This document shows positions 1,863 through 51,168 of a DNA stretch of 64,000 nucleotides, piece after piece. The position numbers and the translations under genes are program-made. The notes beneath the pieces were generated by a model. The model saw only the letters and a program-made list of their open reading frames with translations. It did no database searches and was not told the origin of the DNA. Every line of letters starts with the position of its first letter. Positions within the stretch are counted from its first letter, which is position 1. Origin of the DNA: Eledone cirrhosa (lineage: Eukaryota); NCBI GenBank assembly GCA_964016885.1, contig OZ024748.1, forward strand, positions 20,460,001 through 20,524,000, in the 5' to 3' direction.

Positions 1863-2061
1863 TATATTTAATATAGAAATGGCTTCTACAGGACTAGTAC
1901 AGTTTCATTCGGGAGAAATCATCAGGGCTTTCCTGATGATTTCTGCCGAATGAAACAGTTCTAGTCCTGTAGAAGCCATTTCTATATTAAATATTTATAC
2001 TCTGCTATGTATTGAGTACCTTACTTACCATGGTTACCCCCAATTGAACCCAGGATAAACA
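1863..2061 (+). mobile_element. Fold-back element family C, copy 1
   Basis: Arms about 1864-1926/1932-1994, loop GCTTT, tail with ACTC..GAGT; TA-flanked; homologous to 50955-51168. Confidence 0.8.
1925..1977 (+). ncRNA. Minimal type I hammerhead ribozyme
   Basis: GGCTTTC-CTGATGA(1933-1939)-TTTCTGCCGAAT-GAAA(1952)-CAGttctagtcCTG-TA-GAAGCC; GUA cleavage triplet 1969-1971; stem II is short. Confidence 0.75.
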
Positions 2062-2103
2062 TATATATATATATATTATATATATATATATACATATATA
2101 TAT

Positions 2104-2250
2104 CAGAAAGGGTGTGGTAAAATACCAGGTGGACCATAACTCACCAGAGTACTCGATATTTGGGGTAGTAGAGTGGGTAATATGAAAAGATTCAGGAACC
2201 CGACAGCTGAGCTACAGCCTTTTCGACAGCTGGATCTAGCTGGATCTACT
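2104..2250 (-). mobile_element. Family A element (tail + one arm)
   Basis: Reverse complement of 160-290. Confidence 0.7.
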
Positions 2251-3118
2251 GAGGTGTTGTGTATTACAAATATTCAACAGCAGGACAAATATTCAACAGC
2301 AGGACAAGTTTCCTGATGTCTTCCTGGTGTAGTTTGATGCAACAGACCAGATTTGTGGGCCTAACAAGACATGCAGCTGCATCATGATAAGATTCTGGTC
2401 CAAGTTTTCTTGGCAAAGGAAGGGATTTTTATCTATTGTAAGGCTTCCAAATTTCCAAATATATCATCTCCTGATATTTAACAGTACCCAAAAATGAAGT
2501 TGCAGCTGGTCCAAGTTTTCTTGGCAAAGAAAGGAATATTTATCTTTTGCACAGCTTCAAAAATCACCAAACATATCGTCTTCTGACATTTGGCTTCATT
2601 TTCTTTGCCGACTTATTCCTGAGAGGGTCATGGGGGACAGAGTTCTCAAACACTCCGAGCAGGTCCTGTCAGAAGCAACCCTCTCCAACTAAACTGGCTG
2701 AATCCCTAAGCGTAACCAGCCAAGCTCATAGATGTTATCCAACCATCTTGCTCTGGGTCTTCAAACATTTGGCAGTTCTCAAAAATGAACATGCAACCGA
2801 TCCAAGTTCTCTTGTCAAAGAAAGGCATTTTGTTTTTTTCCCAGGGTTGCTACTCTCTAGACATGGATCCTTCTCACTTCTGGTTGTTCCGAAAAATGAA
2901 GATGGCACTGAAAGACATCACATGGACTGAAAGAGTTGAGTTGAGGGCCATTCTAGAAGAAACCATTCCAGATATGCTTAAAATAGTGAAAGGATTGCTG
3001 AGCTAAGTATGTAGAGACAGAAAGGGCTGAATTTGAAGGGAATTAGCAATTGAACTCCATCAAGTATGGAATTTCCCACCACCCAATCTAAGGTCAGATA
3101 TTTTTTCAACACACCTCA
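2250..3118 (+). pseudogene. Decayed mariner (Tc1/mariner) transposase remnant
   Basis: Fragments read GVVYY..AGQ, QLHHD and YSLDMDPSHFWLFRKMK (cf. YSPDLAPSDFWLF); TIR-like end ttttcaacacacctc. Confidence 0.7.
2595..2764 (-). mobile_element. RTE-like LINE 3' end nested in the mariner remnant
   Basis: Reverse-complement similarity to 62090-62262; flanked by 9-bp direct repeat ACATTTGGC (2586-2594, 2765-2773). Confidence 0.7.
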
Positions 3119-3639
3119 TGCATATGCATATGTATGATGATGATGTATAGATATATATATATATATGTGTGTATATATATATATATATGTATGTATGTAT
3201 GTATATCTAAAAGTCCCTTAAGGCAGAATTCTAGGAGAAGGAAAACTCTGATATAACACCTGCAACCCTGATGGTATCCAATGATGTTGACTTGTTGTTC
3301 TTTTTGGTAAATATCATCTTGGTTAAGAGAGTGGGACTGGCTTTGTGCAGTGCCTTTGCTCACTATAAAAGCTTCACGGCACAGGCATTGCTTTATATCT
3401 GGAGATCTCTCTGCACTTGTCGTCACATGGTACCATGGGCCCAGCACTATATGTCAATAATTGTCACAAGTGTAGTGTTTGTACCAGAGTTTTCAAGTCG
3501 CTGGCTGGACTAAAAAGTCACACTCGTTCAGCGCATCGGTAGGGGTTCTCCTACATGGATATAAAGTAGTGGCCGTACTTGAAAACGAGTTGGCAGCCAC
3601 CATATCCAAAAGTCTAAAGTCTGTCTTTAGCGAGAAGGC

Positions 3640-3890
3640 TCATTTGGCCGGTGCTTATCCCGGTTTCATGGCATGAAGCGACTGAGAGTACAAGACTTCC
3701 CCTGGACAGGACCCCAGTCCATCGCAGGGTTAAACCTTCAGCTATTGCTGGTACTCATTTTCAGCTGAGTATACTGGAGCAACGTGAAATGAAGTGTTTT
3801 GCTCAAGAACATAACACGCAACCCAAGAGTCAAGCCCACAACATTATGATCATAAGTCCAACACCCTTACCACTAGGCCACATACCTCCA
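3640..3890 (-). mobile_element. tRNA-derived SINE (third family)
   Basis: Shares the central ctggagcaacgtgaaatgaagtgttttgctcaag with SINE family 2 but has a different tail. Confidence 0.6.
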
Positions 3891-4032
3891 CATGTATGTA
3901 TATATATATATATTCATTAGTTAAGCAAAACAAGACCACAGATTTCACAAGGAAGACATTATTAAAAGATTGGAAACATATTTTAGTTTGATGTAAGTAA
4001 TGTAGAGAATAATAATAATAATATTAATAATA

Positions 4033-4217
4033 ATTGTTTCTACGTTAGGCACAAGGCCAACAATTACCCAGTGCATTACTGGTACGTTATTTTATCGACC
4101 CTGTAAGGATGAAAGGCAAAGTCAACCTCGGCGGGATTTGAACTCAGATCGCAAAGGGATGTAACTATGCTGGAAAGCATCGCGTCCGACCCTCTACCAA
4201 TACTGCCAATCCACCAA
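4033..4217 (-). mobile_element. tRNA-derived SINE family 1
   Basis: TGGCAGTATCGGTAGAG..GAGTTCAAATCC head and gcctttcatccttacggggtcgataaaataaagtacc core; about 20 copies or fragments in the window. Confidence 0.85.
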
Positions 4218-4411
4218 TAATGTCCGTTTACAATTGTTTCGGAACTCCATATAATATTTCTGGATCAAATGATTATATATCATTATTGATCTGGTTCAAT
4301 TGAAAATAATTAACATAGGCTTCTAACTAATTCACCAATCTCTCCTCTCCTATCTCCATCTCTCTTTTTAAGATTGGTTACTCTTGAACTGCGTGTATAT
4401 ATATATATATT

Positions 4412-4652
4412 TCGTTTTTGAATTTGTTTTGCAATATTTCCTATCTGAAAACGTGTGTTGAAACAGATATTGTTATACTTTGGGAGGGTCATGCTGGCAT
4501 TAAAACTCACACCTGTTGGTTTTCACTTCAATTTATAAATTTCTGGTCTGTTGGTTGGTTCGAAAACCCAGTCACAGAATGTGTGACAAAAGAGATTTGA
4601 CAATATAGAAACAACGATCCAGTTATCGAACCAACCAACCAATCAGAAATTT
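4412..4652 (-). mobile_element. Fold-back element family P (related to 27212-27670)
   Basis: Shares atattgttatacttNgggagggtcat; internal arms aaatttctg..ttggttggttcga / tcgaaccaaccaaccaatcagaaattt. Confidence 0.6.
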
Positions 4653-4729
4653 ACTGGATCTACCTGTCAAACTGGCCGGCGCTCAACCATCGGGGTCCTG
4701 AATCTTTTCACATATATATATATATATAT

Positions 4730-4828
4730 AGGAAAATGTTTGACCCCGACAGCAGAGCTCAAGACGTTTCGACAGCTATTTCTGATGCATTATGGTCCAT
4801 CTGGTTCCTTACCACTCTTCCTTCGTTA
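4730..4828 (+). mobile_element. Internally deleted family A element
   Basis: ccccgacagcagagctcaagacgtttcgac arm joined to the tail; similar copy at 18751-18850. Confidence 0.6.
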
Positions 4829-4835
4829 TATATAT

Positions 4836-5122
4836 ATATCATCATCATCATCATTTTACGTCCGCTTTTCCCTGCTTGCAAGGGTGGGACGGGAATTGAT
4901 TCTGGCTTGATTTCTACAGCTGGATGCCCTTCCTAACACCAACCTCATTTACAGTGAGTGCTGGGTGCTTTTTTGCCGTGGCACCTCCACGACCACTTTG
5001 CAGTGGCATGATAAGGACCCCAGTCCCTATCATCTCATTTCTACAGCTGAGTAAATTGGAGCAATGTGAAATAAAGTGTCTTGCTCAAGGAAACAACACA
5101 TCACCCGGTCTGAGAATTGAAC
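4836..5122 (-). mobile_element. SINE family 2 (5'-truncated)
   Basis: Near identical to 40031-40320. Confidence 0.85.
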
Positions 5123-5197
5123 TATTGTATGTATATATATATATATATATACATACAATATATTAATAAATGGAAACTATATTTATAAAGCCATAAT

Positions 5198-5262
5198 TAT
5201 TTTATTATATATATTTCAAGGGCGACAAAGGTAAATTATGGTGCGCTTCATCAGATAAAATA
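5198..5262 (-). ncRNA. Hammerhead ribozyme, mirror copy on the left arm
   Basis: Reverse complement of 5365-5430 with intact CTGATGA/GAAA and stem I. Confidence 0.8.
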
Positions 5263-5364
5263 CAGATTTGTTTTATAAATAAATATTGACATATGCGGCG
5301 AATTTCAACCGTTGAGGTTGTCTTTTTTCCGGGTATGTCAATATTTATTTATGAAACAAATCTG

Positions 5365-5430
5365 TATTTTATCTGATGAAAGCGCACCATAATTTACCTT
5401 GGTCGCCCTTGAAATATATATAATAAAATA
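5365..5430 (+). ncRNA. Minimal type I hammerhead ribozyme
   Basis: Stem I TATTTTAT/ATAAAATA (8 bp), CTGATGA 5373-5379, stem II aagcgcacca..tggtcgccctt, GAAA 5411-5414, palindromic stem III ATATATAT, AUA cleavage. Confidence 0.85.
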
Positions 5431-5682
5431 ATTATGGTTTTATAAATAGAGTTTCCATTTATTAATATATTGTATATTTACTCCACTACTCTGTTGAGTG
5501 TTTAAGCTTGTTGAATCACAACAAATTAAATATAACCTCTGCATATATATATATATAATATATATATATATATATAATATATATATATAATATATATATA
5601 TAATATATATATATAATACATAATATATATATATAATACATAATATATATATATAATATGTAATATATATATATAATATATA

Positions 5683-5869
5683 ATTGTTTCTACTTTAGGC
5701 ACAAGGCCAGCAATTACCCAGTGCATTACTGGTACTTTATTTTATCGACCCCGTAAGGATGAAAGGCAAAGTCAACCTCGGCGGAATTTGAACTCAGATC
5801 GTAAAGGGACATAACTATGCTGGAAAGCATGGCGTCCGACCCTCTACCGATACTGCCAATCCACCGCCC
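5683..5869 (-). mobile_element. SINE family 1
   Basis: Full-length copy. Confidence 0.85.
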
Positions 5870-6378
5870 TTATATATTATATAATTATATATATAATATA
5901 TATATATATATGTTATATATTATATATATATATTATATATTATATATATATATAATATATATAATATATATATATATATAATATATATATATATAATATA
6001 TATATAATATATATATATATATAATATATATATATATAATATATATATATATAATATATATATATAATATATATAAATAATATATATAATATAAATATAT
6101 ATAATATATATATATATAATATATAATGTATATATATATATATATAATATATATAATATATAATATATATATATTATATATAATATATATATTATATATA
6201 TATATAATATATATAATGTATATATATATATAATATATATAATATATATATATATAATATATATATAATATAATATATATAATATAATATATATAATATA
6301 TAAATATAATATAATATATATAATATATAAATATAATATATATAATATAATATATATAATATAATATATATAATATAT
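5870..6378. repeat. Degenerate (TA)n/(TATAA)n microsatellite
   Basis: Direct inspection; similar tracts at 6652-6850, 8405-8553 and 9781-10131. Confidence 0.95.
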
Positions 6379-6410
6379 ATTATTATGTAATAAACAACAT
6401 AAGGCAATTA

Positions 6411-6470
6411 TTCCATTTACCAGTGGTTTCTTAAAAGCAAAAGGTTTTGCTTTCAATCCTCAGAATGAAA
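6411..6470 (-). ncRNA. Hammerhead ribozyme, mirror copy on the left arm
   Basis: Reverse complement of 6485-6544 with an intact core and one stem II change giving a G-U pair. Confidence 0.85.
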
Positions 6471-6484
6471 AAAATCCTGGTTTG

Positions 6485-6544
6485 TTTCATTCTGAGGATT
6501 AAAAGCAAAACCTTTTGCTTTTAAGAAACCACTGGTAAATGGAA
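6485..6544 (+). ncRNA. Minimal type I hammerhead ribozyme
   Basis: Stem I TTTCATT/AATGGAA, CTGAGGA 6492-6498, perfect stem II TTAAAAGCAAAA-cc-TTTTGCTTTTAA, GAAA 6525-6528, stem III ACCA-c-TGGT, GUA cleavage at 6535-6537. Confidence 0.9.
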
Positions 6545-6850
6545 TAATTGCCTTATGTTGTTTATTACATAATAATAATTAAGCTCTGTTGCTTACATAG
6601 AGCACTCTTTTTCCTGGATTTTTCCGACGGAATTACTTCATTCATTTACACATATATAATATATATATATAATATATATAATATATATATATAATATATA
6701 TATATATAATATATATAATATATATAATATATATATATAATATATATATAATATATAATATATATATATATATATAATATATAATATATATAATATATAA
6801 TATAAATATATAATATATAATATATATAATATATATATATAATATATATA

Positions 6851-7930
6851 GGTTAGAATTAACAACGAATATAGTGAAGAGTTTAGCGTAAAAGTTGGCG
6901 TCCATCAGGGCTCTGTTCTCAGCCCCCTACTATTTATTATTGCCCTTCAGGCTATAACAGAGGAGTTCAAGACCGGCTGCCCATGGGAACTCCTATACGC
7001 AGACGACCTGACACTCAGAGCTGAATCAATGGCTGAGCTAGAGAAGAAATTCTAAACATGGAAGCACGGTAGAAACTCCATTTTATGTCCCAAATGCAAA
7101 GTATGGGTGCATAAAAGATGTAGTGGGATCACAGGTAAGCTAACTAAGAACATAGATTTTACATGTGAGCGGTGCTCTGGTGCAATAAGTAGCAGCAAGT
7201 GCCCACAAAATACTAGCTCTTACAACTGCGCAGAGGGCTCTATAGAAATAGTGGACAGCTTCCGTTACCTGGGTGACAAAATCAGCAGTGGGGGAGGGTG
7301 CTCTGAAAGTACAGTAGCTAGAGTCAGAACGGGATGGAAAAAGTTCAGAGAGCTTATACCACTATTAGCCGCTAAAGGGTTCTCCCTAAAAATGAAAGGC
7401 AGGTTGTATGATGCCTGCATATGAACAGCAATGTTGCATGGCAGTGAGACCTGGGCATTGTGTGCAGAGGATATACGCAGACTAGAGAGAAACGAAGCTT
7501 GCATGCTCTGCTGGATGTGTAATAGTAATATACGTGAACGGCAAAGCATAAACGAACTAAGGAAAAAATTAGAAATAAGAGGGATCAGATGTTGTTTACT
7601 CGAGAGAAGGCTACGTTGGTATGGACACGTGATGCGCATGAAAGTCGATAGCTGTATAACAAAGTGCAGGGCAATAAAGATAGACGGTAGCCACGGAATA
7701 GGCAGACCTAGAAAAACCTGGGACAAGCTGATAAACTCCGACCTCACAGACTTACACCTCTCCAAGACAATGTCACTGGACCGAGACCTTTGGCGGTACT
7801 CAGTAATAGAGAAGACCCGCCTTAGCTAAATACATAGTAAAACCTACTACAGCCAGTAGGCATCTCTAACAAAATACACCCCCGTCCCACCACCCCACCC
7901 CGTCCACACCACCCCCTCCTATGTAACGTT
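6851..7930 (+). pseudogene. RTE LINE fragment (same family as 56362), with stops and an internal deletion
   Basis: Near identical to 57576-58750; YADD present; deletion at about 7068 removes the start of the zinc finger. Confidence 0.9.
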
Positions 7931-8046
7931 ATAATATATATATATATACTATATATATATATATATATAATTGTTTCTACTTTAGGCACAAGGCCAGCAA
8001 TTACCCAGTGCATTACTAGTACTTTATTTTATTGACCTCGTAAGGA

Positions 8047-8082
<36 letters not shown>

Positions 8083-8156
8083 CAAATAACGAAACGAAAT
8101 TAAATTTCGTTTCGTTTGTAACTCACTTTTGTATGACTGACGCTTAAACAATTGTT

Positions 8157-8200
<44 letters not shown>

Positions 8201-8202
8201 TA

Positions 8203-8403
8203 TAACAAAGGAAATGTGGTAAGGAACCAGGTGGACCATAACGCACCAAAGTACTCAATACTTAGGATAGTAGAGTGGGTAATAGGAACGAGTAGGACCC
8301 CGACGGCTGAGCTCAAGCCGTTTCAACGGCTAATTCTGGACTGAGTCCAGAATTAGCCCTCAAAACGGCTTGAGTTCAGCCATCGGGGTCCTACTCGTTC
8401 CTA
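8203..8403 (-). mobile_element. Family A fold-back element
   Basis: Tail 8203-8282, arms 8283-8342/8344-8403, apex CTGGACT-G-AGTCCAG. Confidence 0.85.
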
Positions 8404-8413
8404 TATATATATA

Positions 8414-8445
<32 letters not shown>

Positions 8446-8554
8446 ATATATATAATATAATATATATACATAATATATATATATAATATAATATATATAA
8501 TATAATATATATATATAATATAAATAATATAATATATATATATAATATATATAA

Positions 8555-8739
8555 TTGTTTCTACGTTTGGCACAAGGCCAGCAATTAGCCAGTGCATTAC
8601 TGGTACTTTATTTTATCTACCCCGTACGGATGAAAGGCAAAGTTAACCTCGACGGGATTTGAACTCAGATCGTAAAGGGACGTAACTATGCTGGAAAGCA
8701 TGGCGTCCGACCTTCTACCGATACTGCCAAATCACCGCC
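8555..8739 (-). mobile_element. SINE family 1
   Basis: Full-length copy. Confidence 0.85.
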
Positions 8740-8831
8740 ATATATAATATATATAATATATATATAATATATATATATAATATATATAATATATATAATA
8801 TATGTAATATATATAAATAATATATAATATA

Positions 8832-9781
8832 TAAGCAAACAGCCACAGGAAACAAGTACCACCAATCTCTGGGAGGGCCCTGTAGAAACAGTAGACAGCT
8901 TCTGCTACCTAGGTGACCGAATTAGCAACGGAGGTGGGTGCTCAGAAAGTACAATAACTAGGGTAAGAACGGGATGGAAGAAGTTTAGGGAACTACTACC
9001 ACTGCTAGCTGCAAAAGGCTTCTCCCTCAGAATGAAAGGCAGACTGTATGATGCGTGTATCCGAACAGCGATGTTGCATGGTAGTGAGACCTGGGCGCTG
9101 AAGGTGGAAGACTTACGTAGATTAGAGAGAAACGAAGCCTGCATGCTCCGATGGATGTGTAACAGTAATATACGTGAACGACAAAGCATAAATGAATTGA
9201 GAGAGAGACTGAGCATAAGAGGAATCAAATGCTGCGTGCAGGAGAGGCGGTTACGCTGGTATGGACATGTGATGCGTATGAAGGATGACAGCTGCATAAA
9301 AAGGTGCAGAGCACTAGAAGTTGATGGAAACCGCGGAGTGGGGAGACCCAAGATGACTTGGGATGAGGTGATAAAAGCCGACCTTACCCAACTACACCTC
9401 TCAAAGTCAATGACACACGACCGTGACTTCTGGCGTCACGCAGTAATACAGGGTACCCGACCTCCCATGGGTACATGCTGAAGCATATAAACAATATGCC
9501 CCCCACCACCGCAAGGTGGTCGTGGAGGTGCCACGGCAAAAAAGCACCCAGCCCACACTGTAAAGTGGACGTGTAGGCGCCACGAAAAAGCACCCAGCAC
9601 TCACTGTAAATGAGGTTGGTGTTAGGAAGGGCATCCAGCTGTAGAAATCAAGCCAGATCAGTTCCTGTATGAGCAAGGCATGGTCAGCCGACCAGACACT
9701 GCCCACAACAGGACAACCCGTCTAACCCATGCTAGCGTGGAAGAACGGACGTAAAACGGTGATGATGATGATGATGATGAT
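8832..9781 (+). pseudogene. RTE LINE 3' fragment (second subfamily) with 3' UTR and (GAT)n tail
   Basis: MKGRLYDAC..LHGSETW..RLRWYGHVMR..GRPKMTW. Confidence 0.9.
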
Positions 9782-10194
9782 ATAATATATATAAATTATA
9801 TATATATAATATATATATAATATATATATATAATATATATATATAATATATATATATAATATATATAATATATATATATATATAATATATATATATAATA
9901 TATATATATATAATATATATATATATAATATATATAATATATATATATATAATATATATAATATATATATATATAATATATAATATATATAATATATAAT
10001 ATATATAATATATATATATATAATATATATATATAATATATATAATATATATATATAATATATATATATATATATAATATATATATATAATATATATAAT
10101 ATATATATAATATATATAACATATATATATATGCAAACCTACTTAGGTATACACAGACCAACATACACATGAATTAATCTTTGCAAAGTGTGTT

Positions 10195-10422
10195 AAACAC
10201 ACACAAATACATACACAGACATACACACACACACCATACTCACACACACACAATACACACACACACCATATACACGCACCATACACACACGCACCATACA
10301 CACACACCATACACACACACACCATACACACACACCATACACACACCATACACACACACCATACACACACACCATACACGCACACACACACCCACCATAC
10401 ATGCACACACACGCACACACAC

Positions 10423-10453
<31 letters not shown>

Positions 10454-10490
10454 CATACACACACACCATACACACACCATACACACATAC
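10195..10490. repeat. (CA)n/CCATACA compound microsatellite
   Basis: Direct inspection. Confidence 0.9.
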
Positions 10491-10604
10491 TCAGAAAGTA
10501 GAAAAGTGTTAGAATTACAATGAAATAAATTCATTCATTATAAGCCCAACAACAGACCCCCCCACCCCCATCACCACCACCATCCTTACACATTGTAGCA
10601 ACAG

Positions 10605-11565
10605 GGTGTTGGGGTGGTGGTGGTGGTGGCTGGTAGTAGTGATGGGGAGAAGGGAGGGGTGGTTGTGGTGGTGGTAGGGTGGTGGTGTAGTGATGTTGGT
10701 GGTGGTGTAGTGGTGATGGTGTAGTGGTAGCGGTGTTGGTGTAGTGGTGTTGGTGTAGTGATGTTGGTGGCGGGGTTGCTGTGCTGGTGGTGGTGTGGTG
10801 GTGTTGGTGTAGTGGTGTTGGTGTAGTGATGTTGGTGGCGGGGTTGTGGTGCTGGTGCTGGTGTAGTGGTGTTGGTGTAGTGGTGTTGGTGTAGTGGTGC
10901 TGGTGGTAGGGTGCTGATGATGGTGTAGTGGTGTTGGTGGTGGGGTAGTGATGTTGGTGGTGGGGTAGTGGTGCTGATGGTAGGGTAGTGGTGCTGGTGG
11001 TGGTGTAGTGATGTTGGTGGTGGTGTAGTGGTGTTGGTGGTGGTGTAGTGATGTTGGTGGTGGGGTAGTGGTGCTGGTGGTAGGATAGTGGTGCTGGTGG
11101 TGGGGTAGTGGTGCTGGTGGTGGTGTAATGATGTTGGTGGTGGGGTAGTGATGTTGGTGGTGGGGTAGTGGTGCTGGTGGTGGTGTAGTGATGTTGGTGG
11201 TGGGGTAGTGGTGCTGGGGGTAGGGTAGTGGTGCTGGTGGTGGTGTAGTGCTGCTGGTGTTGGTTTAGTGGTGGTGTGGTGGTGGTGGTGTAGTGATGTT
11301 GGTGTTGGTGGTAGTGATGTTGGTGGTAGGGTAGTGATGTTGGTGGTGGTGTGGTGGTGGTGGGGTGGTGGTGCTGGTGGTGGTGTAGTGATGCTGGTGG
11401 TAGGGTAGTGATGTTGGTGGTGGTGTAGTGATGTTGGTGGTGGTGTAGTGCTGGTGGTGGTGGTGCTGGTGGTGGTGTAGTGATGTTGGTGGTGGTAGAG
11501 TAGTGGTGCTGGTGGTAGTGGCATTGGGGAGAAGGGGAGTGGTGGTGGTGGTGTTGGTGGTAGGG
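10605..11565. repeat. Degenerate (GGT/AGT)n trinucleotide minisatellite
   Basis: Direct inspection. Confidence 0.9.
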
Positions 11566-11726
11566 CAGTGGAGTGAAGGAAAGGGAGCAGGGGAGAGGAG
11601 CAGTATTAGCCTTAGTAGCTTACCTGAGAAATACCTGTTTTTTAACATGACAGGTGATGTAAGCAATCTAACCATAAAAAACATTTGTTTGTGTAAGCTA
11701 CCCTACCCCACCCACACTTCAGCCAG

Positions 11727-11956
11727 GTGTGTGTGTGTGTGTGGGGGGGGCATGTGTATGGTTATATGTGTACATAGCTGTGCATGTGTATATATGTATG
11801 AGAGTGTGTGTGTGTATGTATATGTGAATAACTATGCATGTGTATATATGTATGAGGGTTTGTGTGTATGTATATGTGCATAGCTGTGCATGTGTATGAG
11901 TCTGGGTGTATGCATGTATGTGTATGTGCATAGCTGTGCATGTGCATAGCTGTGCA

Positions 11957-11997
<41 letters not shown>

Positions 11998-12912: not shown

Positions 12913-12971
<59 letters not shown>

Positions 12972-12977
<6 letters not shown>

Positions 12978-15105: not shown

Positions 15106-15136
<31 letters not shown>

Positions 15137-19199: not shown

Positions 19200-19551
19200 A
19201 TGTGTAAATGTGCGTGAACGACCCAGCATAAATATGTTGAGAGAGAAACTGTGTCTGAGAGGGATAGAATGTAGTGTACGGGAGAGGAGACTGAGGTGGT
19301 ATGGACATGTGATGCGCATGGAGGATGACCGATGAGTAAAGAAGTGTCAGGAAATGCCAGTTGAAGGAAGACGTGGTAGAGGTAGACCACGAAAAACATG
19401 GGCGGAGGTGGTGAGAACAGACCTCAGATCGCTGAAGCTCACGGTGGAGATGACGAAGGGCCGTGACGAGTGGAGAGATGCTGTACTGAATAAGACCCGT
19501 CCCACCCTTGCAAGCAGGGAAAAGCAGACATAAAATGATGATGATGATGAT
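19200..19551 (+). pseudogene. RTE 3' fragment (third subfamily, partner of SINE family 2)
   Basis: RLRWYGHVMR..GRPRKTW; tail ccgtcccacccttgcaagcagggaaaagc. Confidence 0.85.
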
Positions 19552-19767
19552 ATATAAATTTTTGTAAAATTGTAATATTCTCAACGCGAAGGGTCGCCAT
19601 AAACATCTGGATACTATCATGATGATTATCATCATCGTTTTATGGCCATTTTTCCACGCTGACATGGATTAGATGAGTTGCCCTGTTGTGGGCAATGTCA
19701 GGTCAGTTGACCATGTCTTGCTCATACAGAACTGATTTGGGCTTGTTTTCTACAGCTGGATATATAT

Positions 19768-20151
19768 ATCATCATCATCATCATCATCATTTTACGTCCG
19801 CTTTTCCCTGCTTGCAAGGGTGGGACGGGTCTTATTCAGCACAGCATCTCTCCACTCGTCACGGTCCTTCGTCGTCTCCACCGTGAGCTTCAATGATCTG
19901 AGGTGTGTTCTCACCACCTCCGCCCATGTTTTTCGTGGTCTACCTCTACCACGTCTTCCTTCAACTGGCATTTCCTGGCACTTCTTCACCCATCGGTCAT
20001 CCTCCATGCGCATCACATGTCCATACCACCTCAGTTTCCTCTCCCGTACACTACATTCTATCCCTCTCAGACACAGTTTCTCTCTCAACACATTTATGCT
20101 GGGTCGTTCACGCACATTTACACTGCACATCCAACGGAGCATGCTTGCCTC
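19768..20151 (-). pseudogene. RTE 3' fragment, inverted relative to 19200
   Basis: ORF 19792..20208 EASMLRWMC..LRWYGHVMR. Confidence 0.85.
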
Positions 20152-27210: not shown

Positions 27211-27667
27211 ATATTGTTATACTTGGGGAGGGTCATATTTGTGTAATATTGCCAGAATTAATAACAGAACACACTCACTGTTTGGTTGGTTTTCGCTTCT
27301 CGCTGTCTTTTATATCTGTAATCTAGCTTACATACAACACAACAGGAGGAAAATATAACACCACTGACGATGTTGCAGATGTGCAACGAAAGATTTATGT
27401 AAATTATGTAAACTATATATATGTGTTTGTGTCTATATTGTATCTGTATTATTTTTGACCGTCGGTCAGTCAATGGCAACATTGAGGACCGAGTAAGCTA
27501 GATTACAGATATAAAAGACAGCGAGAAGCGAAAACCAACCAAACAGTGAGTGTGTTCTGTTATTAATTCTGGCAATATTACACAAATATGACCCTCCCCA
27601 AGTATAACAATATTTGTTTCGACACACGATTTCATATAAAAAACCTCGCTAAACTAATTCATCGCCG

Positions 27668-38020: not shown

Positions 38021-38064
<44 letters not shown>

Positions 38065-40852: not shown

Positions 40853-41249
40853 ATCATCATCATCATCATCATCATTTTACGTCCGCTTTTCTCTGCTTGC
40901 AAGGGTGGGACGGGAACTGATTCTGGCTTGATTTCTACAGCTGGATGCCCTTCCTAACACCAACCTCATTTACAGTGAGGGCTGGGTGATTTTTTTCTCT
41001 GTGGCGCCTCCACGACCACTTTACAGTGTGGGCTGGGTGCTTTTTTGCCATGGTACCTCCACGACCACTTTGCAGTGGAATGATAGGGACCCCAGTCTTT
41101 ATCATCTCATTTCTACAGCTGAGTAAACTGGAGCAATGTGAAATAAAGTGTCTTGCTCAAGGAAACAACACATCACCCGGTCTGAGAATTGAACTCACAA
41201 CCTTTCGATTGCTAGCCCAATGCTCTAACCACTAAGCCATGTGCCTCCA
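40853..41249 (-). mobile_element. SINE family 2 with an internal duplication of about 48 bp
   Basis: cctccacgaccacttt unit occurs twice. Confidence 0.85.
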
Positions 41250-41264
41250 TAATAATATATATAT

Positions 41265-41323
<59 letters not shown>

Positions 41324-41566
41324 AGTGTGAGAGAGAGAAGAGAGTGAGAGAGAGAGAGAGAGGATAGAGTAAAGACAGAAGATAGAACGAGATAGAGAGA
41401 GAGATAGGTAGAGAGTGTGAAAAAGAGACAGAGTGTGAGAGTGTGAGATAGAGACAGATAGAGAGAAATAGGAGAGAGAGAGAGAGAGTGAGATATATAT
41501 ATAGAGAGAGATGGAGAGACAGAGTAGGGGGGAGTAAATGTCTCTCAGAGAGAAAGGTGATTCCTG

Positions 41567-42690
41567 TCGGCTGAAAAGCTGGTTATAAAGGAGTGATGCG
41601 AGAGCTGTGAAATCTTGTATGCATTAATTTCAACTCTTCTTATTAATAACTACATTGTTTCTTTCCAGAAATTATATTGAAAAATAATCCTCATTTGGTC
41701 ATTCCATGAGAGTATCTTGGTTAGCCTATGAAGGAGTGGTACTAGAGCTGTGAAATCTTGTATGCATTAATTTTAACTCTTCTTACTAATTATTGAAAAA
41801 TAAACCTCATTTGGTCATCCATGAGAGTATCTTGGTTAGCCTATGAAGGAGTGGTACTAGAGCTGTGAAATCTTGTATGCATTAATTTTAACTCTTCTTA
41901 CTAATAACTACATTGTTTCTTTCCAGAAATTATATTGAAAAATAAACCTCATTTGGTCATCCATGAGAGTATCTTGGTCAGCCTATGAAGGAGTGGTACT
42001 AGAGATGTGAAATCTTGTATGCATTAATTTTAACTCTTCTTATTAATAACTACATTGTTTCTTTCCAGAAATTATATTGAAAAATAAACCTCACTTGGTC
42101 ATTCCATGAGAGTATCTTGGTTAGCCTATGAAGGAGTGGTACTAGAGCTGTGAAATCTTGTATGCATTAATTTTAACTCTTCTTATTAATAACTATATTG
42201 TTTCTTTCCAGAAATTATATTGAAAAATAAACCTCACTTGGTCATTCCATGAGAGTATCTTGGTTAGCCTATGAAGGAGTGGTACTAGAGCTGTGAAATC
42301 TTGTATGCATTAATTTTAACTCTTCTTATTAATAACTACATTGTTTCTTTCCAGATATTATATTGAAAAATAAACCTCACTTGGTCATTCCATGAGAGTA
42401 TCTTGGTTAGCCTATGAAGGAGTGGTACTAGAGCTGTGAAATCTTGTATGCATTAATTTTAACTCTTCTTATTAATAACTACATTGTTTCTTTCCAGAAA
42501 TTATATTGAAAAATAAACCTCATTTGGTCATCCATGAGAGTATCTTGGTCAGCCTATGAAGGAGTGGTACTAGAGCTGTGAAATCTTGTATGCATTAATT
42601 TTAACTCTTCTTACTAATTATTGAAAAATAAACCTCACTTGGTCATTCCATGAGAGTATCTTGGTCAGCCTATGAACCTTTCATCCAACC
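41567..42690. repeat. About 143-bp tandem array inside a mariner-like MITE
   Basis: About 8 units; ends gtcagcctatgaacctttca; related single copy at 36840-36930. Confidence 0.85.
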
Positions 42691-43379
42691 ATCATATGTA
42701 AATTCCTTACAAATATCACATGAAAAGTGTTCACTGCCAATGTTCAGTTATCTAATGTAAACACACAGCTGATCAAATCATGTTGACACAAACAGATTAC
42801 ATTGTTAACTGTTGCTGTTGCTGTTGTTATTGTCTTTACTGAAGAACAATAACTACTTGATGATGATTGTGATGTAGGTGGTGGTGGTGGTGATGATGGT
42901 GGTAGTGGTGGTGTTGGTGGTAATGGTAATGGTGGTGTTGGTGGTAATGGTGCACTGATTGTTGTGGTGGTGTTGTGGTGGCGATGTAGGTGGTGGTGGT
43001 GGTGATGGTGGTGGTGGTGGTGGTCATGTTGATGGTAGTGGTGGTGTTGGTGGTGTTGGTGGGTTGATAGTGGTGGTGGTGAAGGTGGTGTGGTGTTAGT
43101 GGTGGTGATGTGGTCGCAATGATGTTGATGAAGGAAGAGATGGTGGTGGTGTCTTGTATGTTATTAAATCCTTCCAAAATCTTATTTAATTTCAAAATGA
43201 TTTGAAAATCTTAATCAGTTCGTTTCATTTGTAATATAGCAATGAAATAATTAAACAGTGATCACAACAGCTAGCATCAGGATTGGAAGAGCAGTGTATA
43301 CATGTATTTCACATTTGTTACTTCTCATGAGCGCTCGCTTACTTATGTCCAGATATTGAGGTATAAAAGACACTGATGT

Positions 43380-43835
43380 CAAATAGATTTTGTAAACAAA
43401 CTCTTCTTATTTGCAGCACTGATTTTTGGCAACAAACCTATTGAGTGCAAGTCAAAGATCATCTTCTGTCGAGTTAAGTAACACCATGTCATCTGTAAAT
43501 TTCAGCCAACTGGTTTTACACCTGCCAGTTGTGATACCACTTCCACCCCAGCTGCACATGTCAATTCTGTTCATGAAAATAATGAACAGGAGAGGTGACA
43601 GTACATACCCTTGGTAGATGTCCGACTCCCACATTGAATAGTTTCGATTTAGCCCCATATATCTGAACACAAATACTTGGGCATTTGTATAGAAACATCA
43701 GGGCAGTAAGAAGCTGACCATCAATCCCATATACCACAGCAGGTCCCAAGGAACGTGGTCATATGCCTTTTTAAGGTTGACAAAACAAGAATATTCTTCT
43801 TGGCAATACTCCCACGATTTCTTGAATATCTGCCT
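43380..43835 (-). pseudogene. Decayed non-LTR RT fragment
   Basis: QGYVLSPLLFIIFM..LKFTDD. Confidence 0.75.
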
Positions 43836-44097
43836 TAACTTCACATCTCAATAAAAGATTGAATTAACCAGAGCTCAAAGTATTGAAATTCCCCCTCCTC
43901 CTCCCATTTCTTCTATACATCTGTTACCAGTGCCATCATGAAGTTTCTCCTCCAGTTCACCCTATTGCTGTCTGAATTTCCCCTGCCTCCAACTCAGTAT
44001 CATCTTCAATAACATCCTTCAGTATTGTGGTTGGTCTCCCAACTCATCTGCATGCATCAGGTTTCCAGAAAAAGAGAATTCCTACTTAGAGAGATAA

Positions 44098-44285
44098 CTG
44101 TTTCTACTTTAGGCACAAGGCCAGCAATTACCCAGAGTGCATTATTGGTACTTTATTTTATCGACCCCGTAAGGATGAAAGGCAAAGTCAACCTCGGCGG
44201 GATTTGAACTCAGATCGTAAAGGGACGTAACTATGCTGGAAAGCATGGCGTCCGACCCTCTACCGATACTGCCAATCCACCGCCC
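44098..44285 (-). mobile_element. SINE family 1
   Basis: Full length; further copies at 46592-46779, 47973-48132 and 51608-51793. Confidence 0.85.
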
Positions 44286-46019
44286 TTTTAAATGAAAATA
44301 AATAGAAATAATAATTGCTGCAATTATAGCTTGTCACCACCGCTGCCCCTGCCTCCCCCTACCACAATTATCACACTACCAACAACAACAACAAAGCTAC
44401 AACACCACCACCACAACCATAACTGCCACACCACCATTATAGCTGTCATTGCAACCACCATACAGTGTATCTAGGGCATTTTAAATCTAGTGGAGCCAAT
44501 CCACTCTCCAGAGAAGGAAAGAGAGTGATAGAGAGAAAGTGAGAAAGAAATATTAAGGAAGAATTGACGCTAATATGGGACTGGTACTGTCTTTTACCAT
44601 ACCAACTTTAAAAGGATGAAAGGTATATGAAACATCAAGTCTGTTACTTGATACAGTGTGTCTAGGTGTCATTGTAACTACTTTTGCTGCATTAGCTATT
44701 AAAATATTTCCTCATATAGGAAAACAATAAACAATTAAATGAAAACAAAAGGGAAATAATCCCAGAAGAGAGTGAGTAGCTCCTGTACAGACTTCTCAAA
44801 CAGCTAGAAGTAAGTCAAATCTCTCTGTGATACAAGCCAATAAGGCATACTTTACATGGTTACTACACTAAAAATAGCAGCCAAATCTCCCTAAAAAGAT
44901 GTAATGATTACAACTGTGTACATAGTATAGTAACCATGTAAAATTTGTATTAAGATTTCCTGTTATAATGGTCTTCCAGGCATGACCATCCGGTCTTCTA
45001 TATCTAAGACTACATTGTCTAATATATCTTACAATTTTTTTAAAGACTGTATGGTGTGACTATAGGGAGATTTGGTTGTTATTTCTAGCAGGTCTATAAA
45101 AGCTACATGGACTAAACAACTACAACAATAACAACAACAGAAAGAAAATCATCTGCTGTTTGTTACATAGTACATTACACAGTTTGACATGGTATGGAGG
45201 TGTATTTCTTGGTTCTAAATCAATCAGAAATATAGTAGATTTGCTGTTCTGACGACCTGTTCCTTAATATTTCATTAGCTTCTCCCTAGATCTACTCTCA
45301 CAGGAAAATTTCAAGAAATATTTCCCATTTTTCAGGGGGTTTAAGATAGAAACTTTCTTGTGTGTGTGTGGCTAGATATGCAAGTTTTCAAAAATAAAAT
45401 GAAAAAGCAGCTATTTTGTCATCAAAGGAATTCAAAATAATAAGTGCTTCTACTTTAGGCACAAGGCCAGCAATTTTGGGAGTGGGGAATGTCAATTAAA
45501 TCGACCTCAGTACATTACTTTATTTTAACAACCCTATAAAGATGAAAGGCAAATCTAACCCCAACCAGATAAAAAGCATTGTCTCCTCTGTATACCTTGT
45601 TTATATGCATATTTATGGTGATAAAATGACTGATGGCAGTGTATGGCTTCTAATCATTCTTAAAACGAAATTTTTTTACGTGCCGTTTATTACGTAATCA
45701 TCAAGTTAATGGAAATACAATCACAAACATCTCTAGTCAGTCTTTATTTTTTTCCTTTATCTAACCATACCAGATATTTAACTCCTAACCGTCACTCATG
45801 ACTTAGCAGAAAATATTTAAAAACTGGTTTGTAAATTCAATTATTTATACTTTTGTAAAAATTTGAAGTACATAGTCTGTAATACATTAATTTTATGATG
45901 ATGATGATGATGAAATAACTTATAAAAACAAACAGCAAAATAGTAAAGATTTCTTCAATGTTACTGTCACCTCTCCCTTGTACCTTGCCAAAAAATGTTG
46001 GTCAGAGATTCATAATCAC

Positions 46020-46143
46020 CTTAGTAGCTCCAATTTGGTATTTAGTATGATCATCTGGATGTTGGGTCAGCAAGATTTTAAGGGAAATATCTGAGGGCAA
46101 GTCTGAGGTCTTGATTTTTTTTTTCTTCAGCAGGCACTTGTAT
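46020..46143 (-). CDS. Exon of an unconventional myosin (end of motor/converter), myosin XV-like
   Basis: Minus strand ...tatatatttag|ATACAAG...GCTACTAAG|gtgatt; 124 nt (1+41 codons) = (R)YKCLLKKKKIKTSDLPSDISLKILLTQHPDDHTKYQIGATK, matching the myosin RY..LL...YQxGxTK motif; joins in phase 0 to the next exon. Confidence 0.9.
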
Positions 46144-47003
46144 CTAAATATATATTAAAAAAAAAGATATTTTATAGTCAAAGTTTGGGTGTTACAGATG
46201 TAATGATATGGTTACATGGATCATTCCACAGATGTACAGATGTCAGTATATGAAGACATAATTAAACAAATGTAATGGTAATGGCTAATAAGATCAGATG
46301 CTTCTCCAGATGTTAGTGTGTGGACACATCTATCACTTAGTGGTACAGATGTTAGTGTGTTGACACATCTATTACACAGTGCTACAGATGTACAGATGTT
46401 AATGTGTTGACACATATATCACACAGTGCTACAGATGTACAGATGTTAGTGTGTTGACACATCTATTATATAGTGCTACAGATGTTAGTGTGTTGACACA
46501 TGGATTGGCTACATTATTGACCTTGCAAGAATAAAAGGTAAAGTTGACCTCAGCAAAATTTAAACTTAGAGTGAAGTAAGACATAACAAATAATTGTTTC
46601 TACTTTTAGCACAAGGCCAGCAAATACCCAGTACATTACTGGTACTTTATTTTATCGATCCCTTAAGGATGAAAGGCAAAGTTAACCTCGGCGGGATTTG
46701 AACTCAGAGTGTAAAGGGACGTAATTATGCTAGAAAGCATGGTGTCCAACCCTCTACCGATACTGCCAATTCACCGCCCTAAGACATAACAAATAATATG
46801 CCCTTTTTAATCTGACACTTTCATGACAGTCAATTTGCCATCACATATGTGTGAAAATGTGTGTGTATGTGTGTATTGAAGTTATTTCTGTATGCATACA
46901 CTATAGAGATAACCAAAAACTGTATAAACATGTATATATATTTACACATTTTTAGTATATAGACATGTAAATATGCTAAATATACATATCTCCTTGTAAA
47001 TTG

Positions 47004-47060
<57 letters not shown>

Positions 47061-47162
47061 AAAACACATTTTTTAAATGAAAAAAACAAGATGTTCTACA
47101 CAAGTGAAAGTATAAGGAAAAGAAATCGAAAATGTATCCAGTTGCATTTTTTTATTTCTTTT

Positions 47163-47207
<45 letters not shown>

Positions 47208-47211
<4 letters not shown>

Positions 47212-47578
47212 ATGAAGCATTGTGTAATGAGGTATAAACGTTTGAATTTGTAAAGCCAAACAATGCAGGTATGGACATAGAATAAAAATGCAAATGCAAA
47301 AGATATTGTTGACAATTAGTCTTTTACCTTAGATTTATTTAAATGTCCTTAATTGTCAAGATAATAGCTTGCCAAGTCATGCTGTCAGCATGACTTGGTA
47401 AGCTATTTAGAACACTGGTTTAACCGCTTTACTTCCCGCCGAAGAAGAGATATTATCTTGAAAATTAAGGACATTTAAATAAATCTAAGGTAAAAGACTA
47501 ATTGTCAACAATATCGTTTGCATTTGCATTTTTATTCTATGTCCATACCTGCATTGTTTGGCTTTACAAATTCAAACG

Positions 47579-47585
<7 letters not shown>
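47208..47585. mobile_element. Fold-back element family W with a nested second hairpin
   Basis: About 130-bp arms 47235-47365/47452-47582; inner hairpin ATAGCTTGCCAAGTCATGCTG-T-CAGCATGACTTGGTAAGCTAT; degenerate core CCGAAGA..GAAAATTA. Confidence 0.75.
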
Positions 47586-47631
<46 letters not shown>

Positions 47632-47632
<1 letters not shown>

Positions 47633-47732
47633 GGGGTCCTGACACTTTCATATTACTCACTCTACTACTCCATGTATCGATTTCTCTGGTGAGTAATGAT
47701 CTAAACAGGTTTTACTGCATGCATTTTGATTT
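47632..47732 (+). mobile_element. Family A tail-only fragment
   Basis: ggggtcctgacactttcatattactcactctactac.. resembles 195-285. Confidence 0.6.
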
Positions 47733-48804
47733 ATATATATACACATGTTGTGTGTGTGTGTATGCACACTCCTTTTTCTTAGCTCCCACCTAAAAAACAC
47801 CTGTAGTTTTTGACTAGCAATAAATATTTCACCTTCCTCTCATAAAGGATTCTCATACAAAACAGAATTTAGACAATAACTTTACTTCATGTAAAAATAA
47901 ATCTATTTGATATTACAAACATTTGTTTTGTCTTCTCAAAATCTGATTTGTAAAACTGCTAACAATCAAATAATTGTTTCTACTTTTGGCACAAGGCCAG
48001 CAATTAACCAGTACATTACTGGTACTTTATTTAATGACCCCGTAAGGATGAAAGGCAAAGTTAACGTCGGCGGGATTTGAACTCAGATCGTAAAGAGACG
48101 TAACTCTTTGCGTCAAAGCATGGCGTCCGATGACCATTAATAACAAGGAGTGAATGGTTAGTTTGTGAATAGGGTGTGTACAGCTCATCATAAAATGATG
48201 AAATATCATTTTAGATTTGGACCAAGATATAAATAGAAAATGATCAAAAACTATCAGGGTTAGGTTCAAGAGATTTTTGATCTTCTGATTGTGTTTAAAT
48301 ATAGGTTAGGACAATTGACAGATTAAGTTACTGTAAAGTGGTTGTGTAGGCAACATGGCAAAAAGCACCCAGCACACACTGTAAATGTGGTTGGCATTAG
48401 GAAGGGCATCCAGCCATAGAAACCAAACCAAATCAGTTCTGTGTGAGCGAATTCACGGTCCTACGATCTGATCCCTCACAAAGGGACAGCTCATCCTACC
48501 CATGCTAACGTGGAAGATGGACGTTAAACGATGATGATGATATATGTTAAAAAAGAAAATTCTGAGGATAATAGAAATATAGAAATATAAAATGGCAGAA
48601 ACAAAAAAAAAATAAAATAAAATAAAAACAACGTAATTTAATCAAATTTTGTGTTTTGCAATGTATAGCTTCAATACATTTGGCTGTTATTTCTAGCAGG
48701 TCTATAAAGACTATTTCAAGGGTGGGGCCTCTATATAAAATTAGACTGGACAATTGATCAACTTTCTTGAAGCTACCAACAAAGAGTTTGTATTATTATT
48801 TGGA

Positions 48805-49370
48805 CACCATGCTTTGCAGCATACTCGTATAGTTATGGTTTTTTATGTTCCGAGTTCAAATCCCGCTTAGGTTAGCATTGCTTTTCATCTTTAGAGGGTC
48901 AATAAAATAAAGTACCAGTAATGTACTGATGTTGATTTAATCGACTTTCCCCTGTTCCCAAATTGTTAGCCTTGAGCCTATAGTATAAATCATTATTATC
49001 GGTAGAGGGTCGGACGCCATGCTTTCCAGCATAGTTATGTCCCTTTGCGATCTGAGTTCAAATCCCGCCGAGGTTGACTTTGCCTTTCATCCTTATGGGG
49101 TCGATAAAATAAGGTACCAGTAATGAACTGGGTAATTGCTGGCCTTGTGCCTAAAGTAGAAACAATTATTATTTGAACAATATGCTTTGCACATATAGTT
49201 ACGCCTCTTTACATTATGAGTTCAAATCCTGCCGAGGTTAGCTTTGCCTTTCATCCTTACAGGGTCAATAAAATAAAGTACCAATAATGCACTAGGGTCG
49301 ATTTAATCGACTAGCCCCTCCACCCACCAAATGTGTTGGCTTTGTGTCTAAATCAGAAACCATTATTATT
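48805..49370 (+). mobile_element. Three tandem SINE family 1 copies
   Basis: Repeated gagttcaaatcc..gcctttcatcc cores. Confidence 0.8.
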
Positions 49371-50954
49371 ATTATTTTGTTTTTTGTTTTAATTGAGAAA
49401 ACATTTTCAGTTAGCCTATGTAAAAATCTTGAAAATATTCTTGAAAATATTTTGTATAAAAGTAACACTGAGAAGTGGACAGAGTGGGTCTTAAAACCAA
49501 CCCAGACACCTAGGTGACACTGACTAACAGACTGCTAAGGGCAAAAGGCAGGTTTTCACACTTGGAGGGCAGTAACTTCAAATAAGGACTGATGTGGACC
49601 ATAACAACCAATCTAACCCATAGTAGCATCAAAAGTGAACATAAAACGATGATGATGATGATAAGGAGGAGGGGGATACATACATAATTACATAATATAT
49701 AAAGATATAATTATAAACAAAGTTTACTAGCCAAGTCAAAGATAAAATAAAGACTATAGGCAATATATGATTCAAAGTTTGTCAAACCAAAAATTATAAT
49801 ACAAATGATGCAACAAGTGTATTGAGACTAAAAGTTAACCTTACAAGGTCCCATGATAATCTTACTCTCCCCCACATAACAATTCCAGTTATATCTTTCT
49901 TGGTATTTGCTTATCTCTACTTTCTTCCACATTGTTTAAAAACTTATATGTTAAGAAAGCAAGGAACATAGTCCTCAGAATTTATAATAAATAAATTCCC
50001 GAAATGTCAATAAAAATAAAAGTGCCAGTCAAGTAGTGGGGATGATTCTTCCTCTGTATCTTTCTTGCTCCTCTCTCTCTCTCTTTCTCTGACACACACA
50101 CCCACACTCTCTCTCTGAAAGAAATCAGCTGTGTTTAGACCTAGAGAGGGATGGGCTTTGCAAGGTTTAAAATGCCCAACTCATTACAGCAACCCTAGGA
50201 CTTTTTTTACAACCTTGCCACCAGGAAAGTGGCCGGTCAAAAATGTACTCAAAATTAAAAGAAAGAGAAACATAAATTCTAAAAAATATTAAATCAAGGT
50301 TAAAAAACGGTTTTGTTTTTAGTTTCCACAGTTAGTAAGTGACCCCAAAATCTGATACCAAAACCCGATTAACCTTGAAACTGTTTGGAATTTACTACAA
50401 ATAATAAAAAGAAAACAATAGAAAACAAAAGAAAAAAAGATGAAGTAAGAATGTGAAAATGTATTGTTCATTTTTGATGTGTGTTTTGTTTAGAAATATC
50501 AAAACAACTGTCACAAAAGACACCTTTGTTTAAAAAATAAGCTGTCATAAGGTGGGAAGATAAACAAAATAGTCATTGTTCCACCTGTTCATCTCCACAT
50601 TAATATATACACACACATATATAATATACATATATATATACATATATATATATACATATATAGATACACACACATACATATACATATATGGACATATGGT
50701 GCATAAAATTTGATTATAATGTAATGTATGATCATATATTAACCCACTATTTCTTTTTCGTATGCTGTAATCTATGTATATGTATTGTATATATCTATTG
50801 TATATATGTGTGTGTATATATATATATATAGCCAATCCTATTTTCCATACCTATAGACATATATATATATATGTGTGTGTAAAAAATAAATAGAAATAAT
50901 AACACAATCAGTACAGTATATGGAAGGAATATATTAGGTTAACGCTTATATATG

Positions 50955-51168
50955 TATAACAAATTTGATATGGAAATGGCTTCTACAGGACTAGAACTGT
51001 TTCATTTGAAAGAAATCATCAGGAAAGCCCTGATGATTTCCTTCAAATGAAAAAATTCTAGTCCAGTAGAAGCCATTTTCACATATTAGATTTGTTGTTT
51101 ACACTCTCCTAATGTATTGAGTACCTTACTTACTGTGGTAACCCTCAATTGAACCCATGACTCGGATA
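50955..51168 (+). mobile_element. Fold-back element family C, copy 2
   Basis: Homologous to 1863-2061; loop AAAGC; hammerhead core complete on the minus strand 50978-51030. Confidence 0.8.

What the first reader, a model, noticed from the sequence alone, without database searches (positions are those of the whole stretch)
1916..51040. Flip/flop hairpin loops in two copies of family C
Both copies have the tail on the right and fold back at the identical position. Copy 1 reads AAATCATCAGG-GCTTT-CCTGATGATTT (loop 1927-1931); copy 2 reads AAATCATCAGG-AAAGC-CCTGATGATTT (loop 51024-51028), the exact reverse complement. The loop supplies hammerhead stem I, so its orientation decides which strand has the complete ribozyme. 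This recalls flip/flop isomers of hairpin-ended replicons and suggests either that the whole palindrome is the mobile unit or that arm recombination inverts the loop.
Basis: partly seen in the sequence, partly recalled or inferred. Interest (0 to 1): 0.75.

Follow-up and report, generated by a model that had tools for sequence, protein, structure and literature searches.

The report
Penelope stubs with 1:1 flipped loops
The two mirror-image loops are real and the family carries both forms at 1:1 across the genome, but these are short head-to-head stubs of a Penelope-like jumping gene whose loop likely points either way because two DNA copies of one RNA are joined tip to tip at insertion, not because a hairpin replicon flips.

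Summary
Both window copies are head-to-head stubs (short inverted arm, loop, hammerhead arm, ~65-70 nt tail, TA-rich flanks) of a Hydra-type Penelope-like retroelement with >12,000 tails and intact 713-aa copies in this genome. Both loop orientations are equally common: 57:59 in 116 oriented hairpins, 80:82 genome-wide among mutation-free young copies, with no trend by age. The apex is a hot spot, not fixed: loops vary widely, but the arms stop at a sharp wall 30 nt below the parent's TATA box, the predicted RNA start, where hammerhead stem I begins. 120 of 123 hairpins have a tail on exactly one arm, and zero-loop joints are common. Most likely two target-primed cDNAs from one RNA run off its 5' end and are joined head to head, so either arm can supply the loop. 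A mobile palindrome and later arm recombination are not supported; a fold-back hairpin nicked on either strand is not excluded. The anatomy is published for Penelope elements; the 1:1 tally was not found in three searches. This scan reached the same reading on other DNA of this genome.

The parts
1864..1926 (-). Copy 1 short inverted arm (no tail), ends in a TA run
1927..1931 (+). Copy 1 loop GCTTT, continuous with the tail arm ('sense' isomer); G1926 corresponds to TATA+30 of the parent subfamily, the predicted RNA start
1926..1977 (+). Type I hammerhead motif with intact stem I: core CTGATGA 1933-1939, GAAAC 1952-1956, predicted cut after GTA 1969-1971, stem I 3' strand 1972-1977
   Evidence: motif and pairing; no Rfam match; activity untested
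1932..1994 (+). Copy 1 long arm, part shared with the inverted arm
1995..2060 (+). Copy 1 tail (in intact elements this is 5' leader between the hammerhead and the ORF), followed by (TA)n
50959..51023 (-). Copy 2 short inverted arm (no tail); left end approximate
51024..51028 (+). Copy 2 loop AAAGC, continuous with the short arm ('antisense' isomer)
50978..51029 (-). Copy 2 hammerhead motif with intact stem I, on the minus strand of the tailless arm; one stem II pair broken (C.A)
51029..51163 (+). Copy 2 long arm plus tail; its hammerhead lacks stem I and has GAAAA for GAAAC; right end approximate

Best explanation
Both copies are head-to-head stubs of a Hydra-type Penelope-like retroelement, and the family shows both loop orientations at 1:1, likely because each insertion joins two separately primed cDNAs tip to tip. 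Shown: anatomy, parent element, 1:1 ratio, one tail per insertion, a wall at TATA+30. Inferred steps: (1) RNA starts 30 nt below the TATA box, at the first base of hammerhead stem I. (2) The endonuclease nicks both strands of a (TA)n target; one 3' end primes reverse transcription at the far leader site (about +130, giving the tail), the other at the near site (+49 to +62, no tail), each on 1-4 nt of TA homology. (3) Both probably use the same RNA, so the two starts differ and the arms share variants. (4) Both cDNAs run off the RNA 5' end and so end in the same few bases. (5) The two ends anneal or are end-joined through short or interrupted palindromes (GG..CC, GAATC, AGCT) and each is extended on the other; whichever arm keeps the unpaired tip, or whichever strand of the mismatched bubble is kept, sets the loop direction, independent of which arm has the tail. 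The loop is thus a scar of the joint; the stubs have no promoter and are likely dead on arrival.
For: 1:1 ratio: 57 sense, 59 antisense, 4 ties in 120 one-tailed hairpins (p=0.93); 12:14 in 30 further sites; 80 vs 82 exact 87-nt matches genome-wide (p=0.94). No age trend: arm mismatches 0, 1-2, >=3 give 20:16, 12:18, 19:17; copies with tails identical to intact elements give 3 sense:8 antisense. One tail: 120 of 123, none with two; 40 of 40 tail-anchored young hairpins have a short arm ending at +46..+61. Wall: furthest upstream reach lies at -7..-4 in 18 of 40 and at -17..-8 in 0 (p=2e-10 against an even spread); TATA+30 is -6 or -7 and begins stem I in 35 of 38 promoter-bearing copies of three subfamilies. 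Arms share the loop II variant in 50 of 54 young copies, with no TAAA/TAAT discordant pair. Joints a fold-back cannot easily prime: 40 of the first 50 of 129 AANNTT sites are the zero-loop AAGCTT, 193 sites have the 1-nt-loop AATC-T-GATT, 11 of 32 loop-unselected hairpins have fewer than 3 unpaired bases. L047 joins the tail arm (-132) to an inverted piece (-583..-326) that the tail arm lacks. Short-arm ends have the same two modes in both isomers (pooled p=0.16). Published biochemistry of a Penelope protein: both strands nicked and extended, two internal start sites define the tail, predicted dimer (PMC11167929).
Against: The RNA start is predicted from the TATA box only. TATA+30 coincides with the start of stem I, so the two cannot be told apart here. 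Shared arm variants would also follow from a single cDNA, from later arm conversion or from one active source locus. Hairpins that turn upstream of the promoter are 6 sense, 0 antisense, 1 tie, and the tail-anchored set near the start is 10 sense:18 antisense: small, but not symmetric. In one of three comparisons short-arm ends differed by isomer (p=0.034). One site scored tails on both arms and 3 of 30 on neither; 3 of 123 had none. In PMC11167929 start-site use did not differ between strands, which alone would predict two-tail and no-tail products; the coupling seen here needs an extra step that is my inference. The predicted pairing of two window-type cDNA ends is weak (-2.8 kcal/mol). Zero-loop joints could be made later by palindrome-perfecting repair.
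Confidence: 0.62

Rival explanations
1. One cDNA, primed at the tail, folds back at the RNA 5' end and is copied into a full DNA hairpin; the element's endonuclease then nicks either strand at the TA-rich site just past the hammerhead and the hairpin is unrolled. This is the closest thing to true flip/flop terminal resolution.
For: Explains one tail (120 of 123), identical arms, the wall and 1:1 if nicking is unbiased. PMC8557442 ascribes the either-end tail to endonuclease resolution of an intermediate; PMC3846280 invokes self-priming for palindromes at inverted junctions; cDNA snap-back after full-length synthesis is seen for R2 (PMC11371274).
Against: Zero- and one-base loops are common and strained for self-priming. 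Tailless ends also occur on direct, non-inverted copies, so the near site is a primary start. Short-arm ends are alike in both isomers, though nicks on opposite strands would be expected to differ. L047 has an inverted piece absent from the tail arm.
Confidence: 0.22
2. Insertions are born in one orientation and the loop is inverted later by template switching or recombination between the arms.
For: Loop inversion by template switching is documented in hairpins (PMC8794818); arms are ~60 bp and near perfect.
Against: Mutation-free young copies are already 80:82; no rise with arm or tail divergence; that paper calls such inversions rare; it does not explain loop variety, insertions at the joint or the wall.
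Confidence: 0.08
3. The whole palindrome is a mobile or replicating unit with flip and flop isomers, like a hairpin-ended replicon.
For: Both isomers are common at 1:1 and some joints recur hundreds of times (201, 447 and 193 sites).
Against: No promoter or protein in the stub; loop, isomer, variant and arm end are freely combined; apex varies; inspected flank sharing is due to other repeats; each part lies in the leader of an intact retroelement.
Confidence: 0.04

Closest known systems
Endonuclease-bearing Penelope-like element insertions with an inverted 5'-truncated copy and a one-sided tail (PMC8557442, PMC3846280; passages and sections read)
   Same: Head-to-head inverted copy, tail on one end only, hammerhead in the repeat, AT-rich targets, palindrome at the joint.
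   Different: Stubs of ~200 bp; tail ~65-70 nt rather than 30-40; joint piled at the predicted RNA start; loop direction counted and found 1:1, which I did not see in the passages read.
Hydra clade of Penelope-like elements, e.g. Hydra-1_Obim (PMC8557442 section 11; one supplement row seen)
   Same: Single short ORF, C-terminal GIY-YIG-like region, DKT, CxCX5C linker, hammerhead, (TA)n targets.
   Different: RWR for RWK. No sequence comparison with Hydra-1_Obim: only the metadata file of the supplement was held.
Poseidon element of Anolis in vitro (PMC11167929, parts 1-2 of 4 read)
   Same: Two internal start sites that bound the tail; AT-rich target; both strands extended.
   Different: Other clade; starts lie in the ORF there and in the leader here; that work did not describe the head-to-head joint in the parts read.
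L1 twin priming (recalled; search listing only)
   Same: Two target ends prime on one RNA and the cDNA 3' ends are joined; L047 has that form.
   Different: In L1 the two pieces do not overlap; here both copy the same ~60 nt.
Flip/flop ends of parvoviruses (recalled; search listing only)
   Same: Two reverse-complement loop forms in equal amounts.
   Different: No fixed terminal sequence, no replication protein or origin, integrated at both ends, loop differs from copy to copy.

Membership tests
EN+ Penelope-like elements | Single ORF with RT and GIY-YIG endonuclease linked to the repeat | tested here: met
   The same hammerhead and tail lie directly 5' of 713-aa ORFs with YRDDG and VY..YIG motifs read by eye; Pfam GIY-YIG only E=0.025, under its cut-off, and no Pfam RT hit. 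The ORFs belong to the young subfamily; none was sought for the window's older subfamily.
EN+ Penelope-like elements | Inverted 5'-truncated copy and tail at one end | tested here: met
   120 of 123 hairpins.
EN+ Penelope-like elements | Hammerhead motif in the terminal repeat | tested here: met
   CUGAUGA, GAAAC, GUA with stems I-III; stem I differs between subfamilies and stays paired: AGAUUC/GAAUCU, AGCUUC/GAAGCU, GGCUUUC/GAAGCC. No Rfam model matches.
EN+ Penelope-like elements | Ribozyme cleavage and retrotransposition activity | not testable with these tools
   Needs bench work.
Hydra clade | DKG changed to DKT; CxCX5C linker; short single ORF; (TA)n targets | tested here: met
   SSDKT, CNCLNKEAC, 713 aa; TA flanks; definition.
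Hydra clade | RWK motif | tested here: inconclusive
   RWR at that place.
Hydra clade | Placement in the RT tree; absence of CCHH | not tested
   No reference proteins were held.
Hairpin-ended replicon with flip/flop isomers | Both isomers in equal amounts | tested here: met
   80:82; 57:59.
Hairpin-ended replicon with flip/flop isomers | One fixed terminal loop and apex | tested here: not met
   23 loop/orientation classes in 32 hairpins; reach from -304 to +29.
Hairpin-ended replicon with flip/flop isomers | Unit copied as a whole | tested here: not met
   Features freely combined; no shared-flank lineage among the pairs read.
Non-LTR retrozymes | Tandem head-to-tail hammerhead repeats | tested here: not met
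   Copies are dispersed and head to head; definition from bioRxiv 10.64898/2026.07.22.740005, part 1.

The most novel reading that the evidence does not exclude
Penelope-like elements solve second-strand priming by mutual priming: one uncleaved, capped RNA is copied twice from two fixed starts, and the two identical cDNA tips pair through the interrupted palindrome at the start of hammerhead stem I and prime each other, leaving a mismatch bubble whose resolution gives exactly 1:1 flip and flop. The 201:47 excess of the 5-base over the 4-base loop would then record one extra cap-templated C.
Probability: 0.3. Interest if true: 0.62.

Novelty: new member of a known kind. Interest (0 to 1): 0.36.

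Why it matters
How Penelope-like elements make their inverted ends and second strand is described as unresolved in the papers read. Thousands of young stubs with a sharp wall, one tail each and a 1:1 loop ratio give numerical constraints that any model must meet, and intact 713-aa copies offer a substrate for an in vitro test. It is not a new replicon, and the stubs themselves are likely neutral.

Tried and rejected
Rfam: no hammerhead match at gathering score in the window or up to E=10 in three promoter-bearing loci. Free folding of single arms did not give the hammerhead; it was checked by hand-set pairs. RNA runs: no RNA holder listed, which is no evidence on expression; no reads were laid. 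First junction parser used a reference that carried its own inversion and was redone; one script failed. In one search, 31 of 98 tail sites were left out as not of the young subfamily, and a few older copies passed the filter. Flank sharing: 29 pairs listed, 7 read, all other TA-targeting repeats. Two sites in both genome-wide lists were fetched: one has a full tail plus a short arm reaching about +75, one is a rearranged duplicate; neither has two full tails. Hammerhead cleavage as cause of the apex: rejected for this joint, since the predicted cut is ~40 nt downstream; a few joints near +35..+40 can be explained by stem I microhomology. The alignment misaligned stem I across subfamilies and was not used for pair counts.
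Full report
Observation. Both strings and both loop coordinates are as stated. Each copy is a hairpin of about 60 bp, far beyond chance (z -20.7 and -14.9), followed on the right by a tail and TA-rich or ATC-rich sequence. They are the only two copies in the window, 81% identical, with different tail variants, so they are separate insertions. Hammerhead stem I forms only on the strand reading GCTTT: plus in copy 1, minus in copy 2. Rfam has no matching model, so the ribozyme call rests on the core motif, hand-checked stems and paired changes between subfamilies.

The family. The 3.0-Gb genome holds 12,082 exact matches to a 30-base tail motif and 3,246 sites of the apex form with loops of 3-12 bases. 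In intact elements the same hammerhead and tail lie between a CCAAT/TATA promoter and a 713-aa ORF. [quoted passage not shown] This fits the Hydra clade as described in PMC8557442 (section 11); no tree was built. The window's copies belong to an older subfamily with the same layout. An inverted truncated copy and a tail at one end are standard for these elements.

Loop direction was scored against the tail. Exact window loop: 14 sense, 13 antisense, 3 with weak tails, in the first 30 of 201 sites. Young subfamily: 13:16 with 1 tailless, and 12:18, in the first 30 of 447 and of 193 sites. All distinct hairpins held at that point, which include those sets and the window copies: 123, of which 120 have one tail, 0 two, 3 none; 57 sense, 59 antisense, 4 ties. 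A further 30 of 47 sites: 12:14, 3 none, 1 both. Whole-genome exact counts of an 87-base young sequence differing only in the loop: 80 antisense, 82 sense. So both forms are common. The apex is not fixed: 32 loop-unselected hairpins fall in 23 classes, and 7 of 40 tail-anchored young hairpins turn 18-304 bases upstream.

Why a hot spot. Among those 40, the furthest upstream reach is -7..-4 in 18 and -17..-8 in none. In 35 of 38 promoter-bearing copies the base 30 below the TATA box is the first base of stem I: AGATTC, AGCTTC or GGCTTTC. A start at TATA+30 follows from general knowledge of polymerase II promoters and is not measured. In the window's subfamily that base is the G just before GCTTT, so the two copies share an apex because both cDNAs likely ran off the same RNA end. 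Some direct, non-inverted copies also begin there.

Mechanism. Three facts constrain it: one tail per insertion, arms that share variants (50 of 54) and a 1:1 loop ratio already present in mutation-free copies with no age trend. A simple fold-back of the tail-primed cDNA would give only the sense form. Two cDNAs primed from the two target strands at two leader sites and joined at their 3' tips give all three, and fit published biochemistry in which both strands are nicked and extended and two internal starts bound the tail (PMC11167929). Joints with zero or one unpaired base, joints with inserted bases and L047, whose inverted piece is absent from the tail arm, favour joining of two molecules. 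I put this at 0.62. A full hairpin nicked on either strand explains the three facts as well and stays at 0.22. Later inversion by template switching is known (PMC8794818) but should grow with age. A mobile palindrome is contradicted by the free mixing of loop, isomer, variant and arm end and by the lack of a promoter.

Results against my reading. Upstream-apex hairpins were 6 sense, 0 antisense, 1 tie, and near-start ones 10:18. One of three tests found short-arm ends differing by isomer (p=0.034; pooled 0.16). The modelled pairing of two tips is weak. The RNA start is unmeasured. The in vitro paper saw no strand preference of start sites, so the coupling to one tail is unexplained by it.

Literature seen. 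PMC3846280: passages and Discussion. PMC8557442: passages, section 11, rows of one supplement. PMC11167929: parts 1-2 of 4. PMC4209133: part 1 of 4. bioRxiv 10.64898/2026.07.22.740005: part 1 of 5. PMC11371274 and PMC8794818: passages. Parvovirus and L1 papers: listings only; those mechanisms, promoter spacing and cap-templated C addition are recalled. Searches for a published tally or twin-priming account of Penelope joints listed none by title or abstract start; the library lacks most subscription journals. Earlier notes of this scan on other DNA of this genome reached the same reading; I had formed it before looking, and they are not independent support.

Verdict. Real observation, known kind of insertion, wrong analogy. 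The value lies in the counts, which narrow an open question on Penelope replication. Interest 0.36.

Noticed in passing
L016, L030, L096, L098, L100, L104, L084: Hairpins that turn upstream of the RNA start have the tail arm longer in 6 of 7 (1 tie), unlike the 1:1 near the start; may show which cDNA is made first.
   Followed up: no
genome: The 5-base loop (201 sites) outnumbers the 4-base loop (47 sites) although the latter has more template homology; would fit one extra cap-templated C.
   Followed up: partly
L047:559-1054: L1-style non-overlapping inversion in this Penelope family.
   Followed up: partly
L026, L078, L034, L037, L081: Several tail arms begin at +34..+40, near the predicted hammerhead cut; stem I microhomology or cleaved RNA could both explain it.
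   Followed up: no
window 5148-5480, 6378-6577, 27211-27613: Other inverted-arm insertions in TA runs with CTGANGA motifs (5254 minus, 6463/6492, 27364); probably stubs of other Penelope families.
   Followed up: no
window 19202-20123, 47233-47584, 8200-8420: Further inverted-repeat insertions without an evident hammerhead core; 47233-47584 has a second small palindrome in its spacer.
   Followed up: no
window 1593-1656 (minus) and about 51170-51510: A tRNA-like SINE lies beside both copies (Rfam tRNA 32.8 bits for the first).
   Followed up: no
L247-L249, L253 and others: Many near-identical intact 713-aa ORFs suggest a recently active element.
   Followed up: partly
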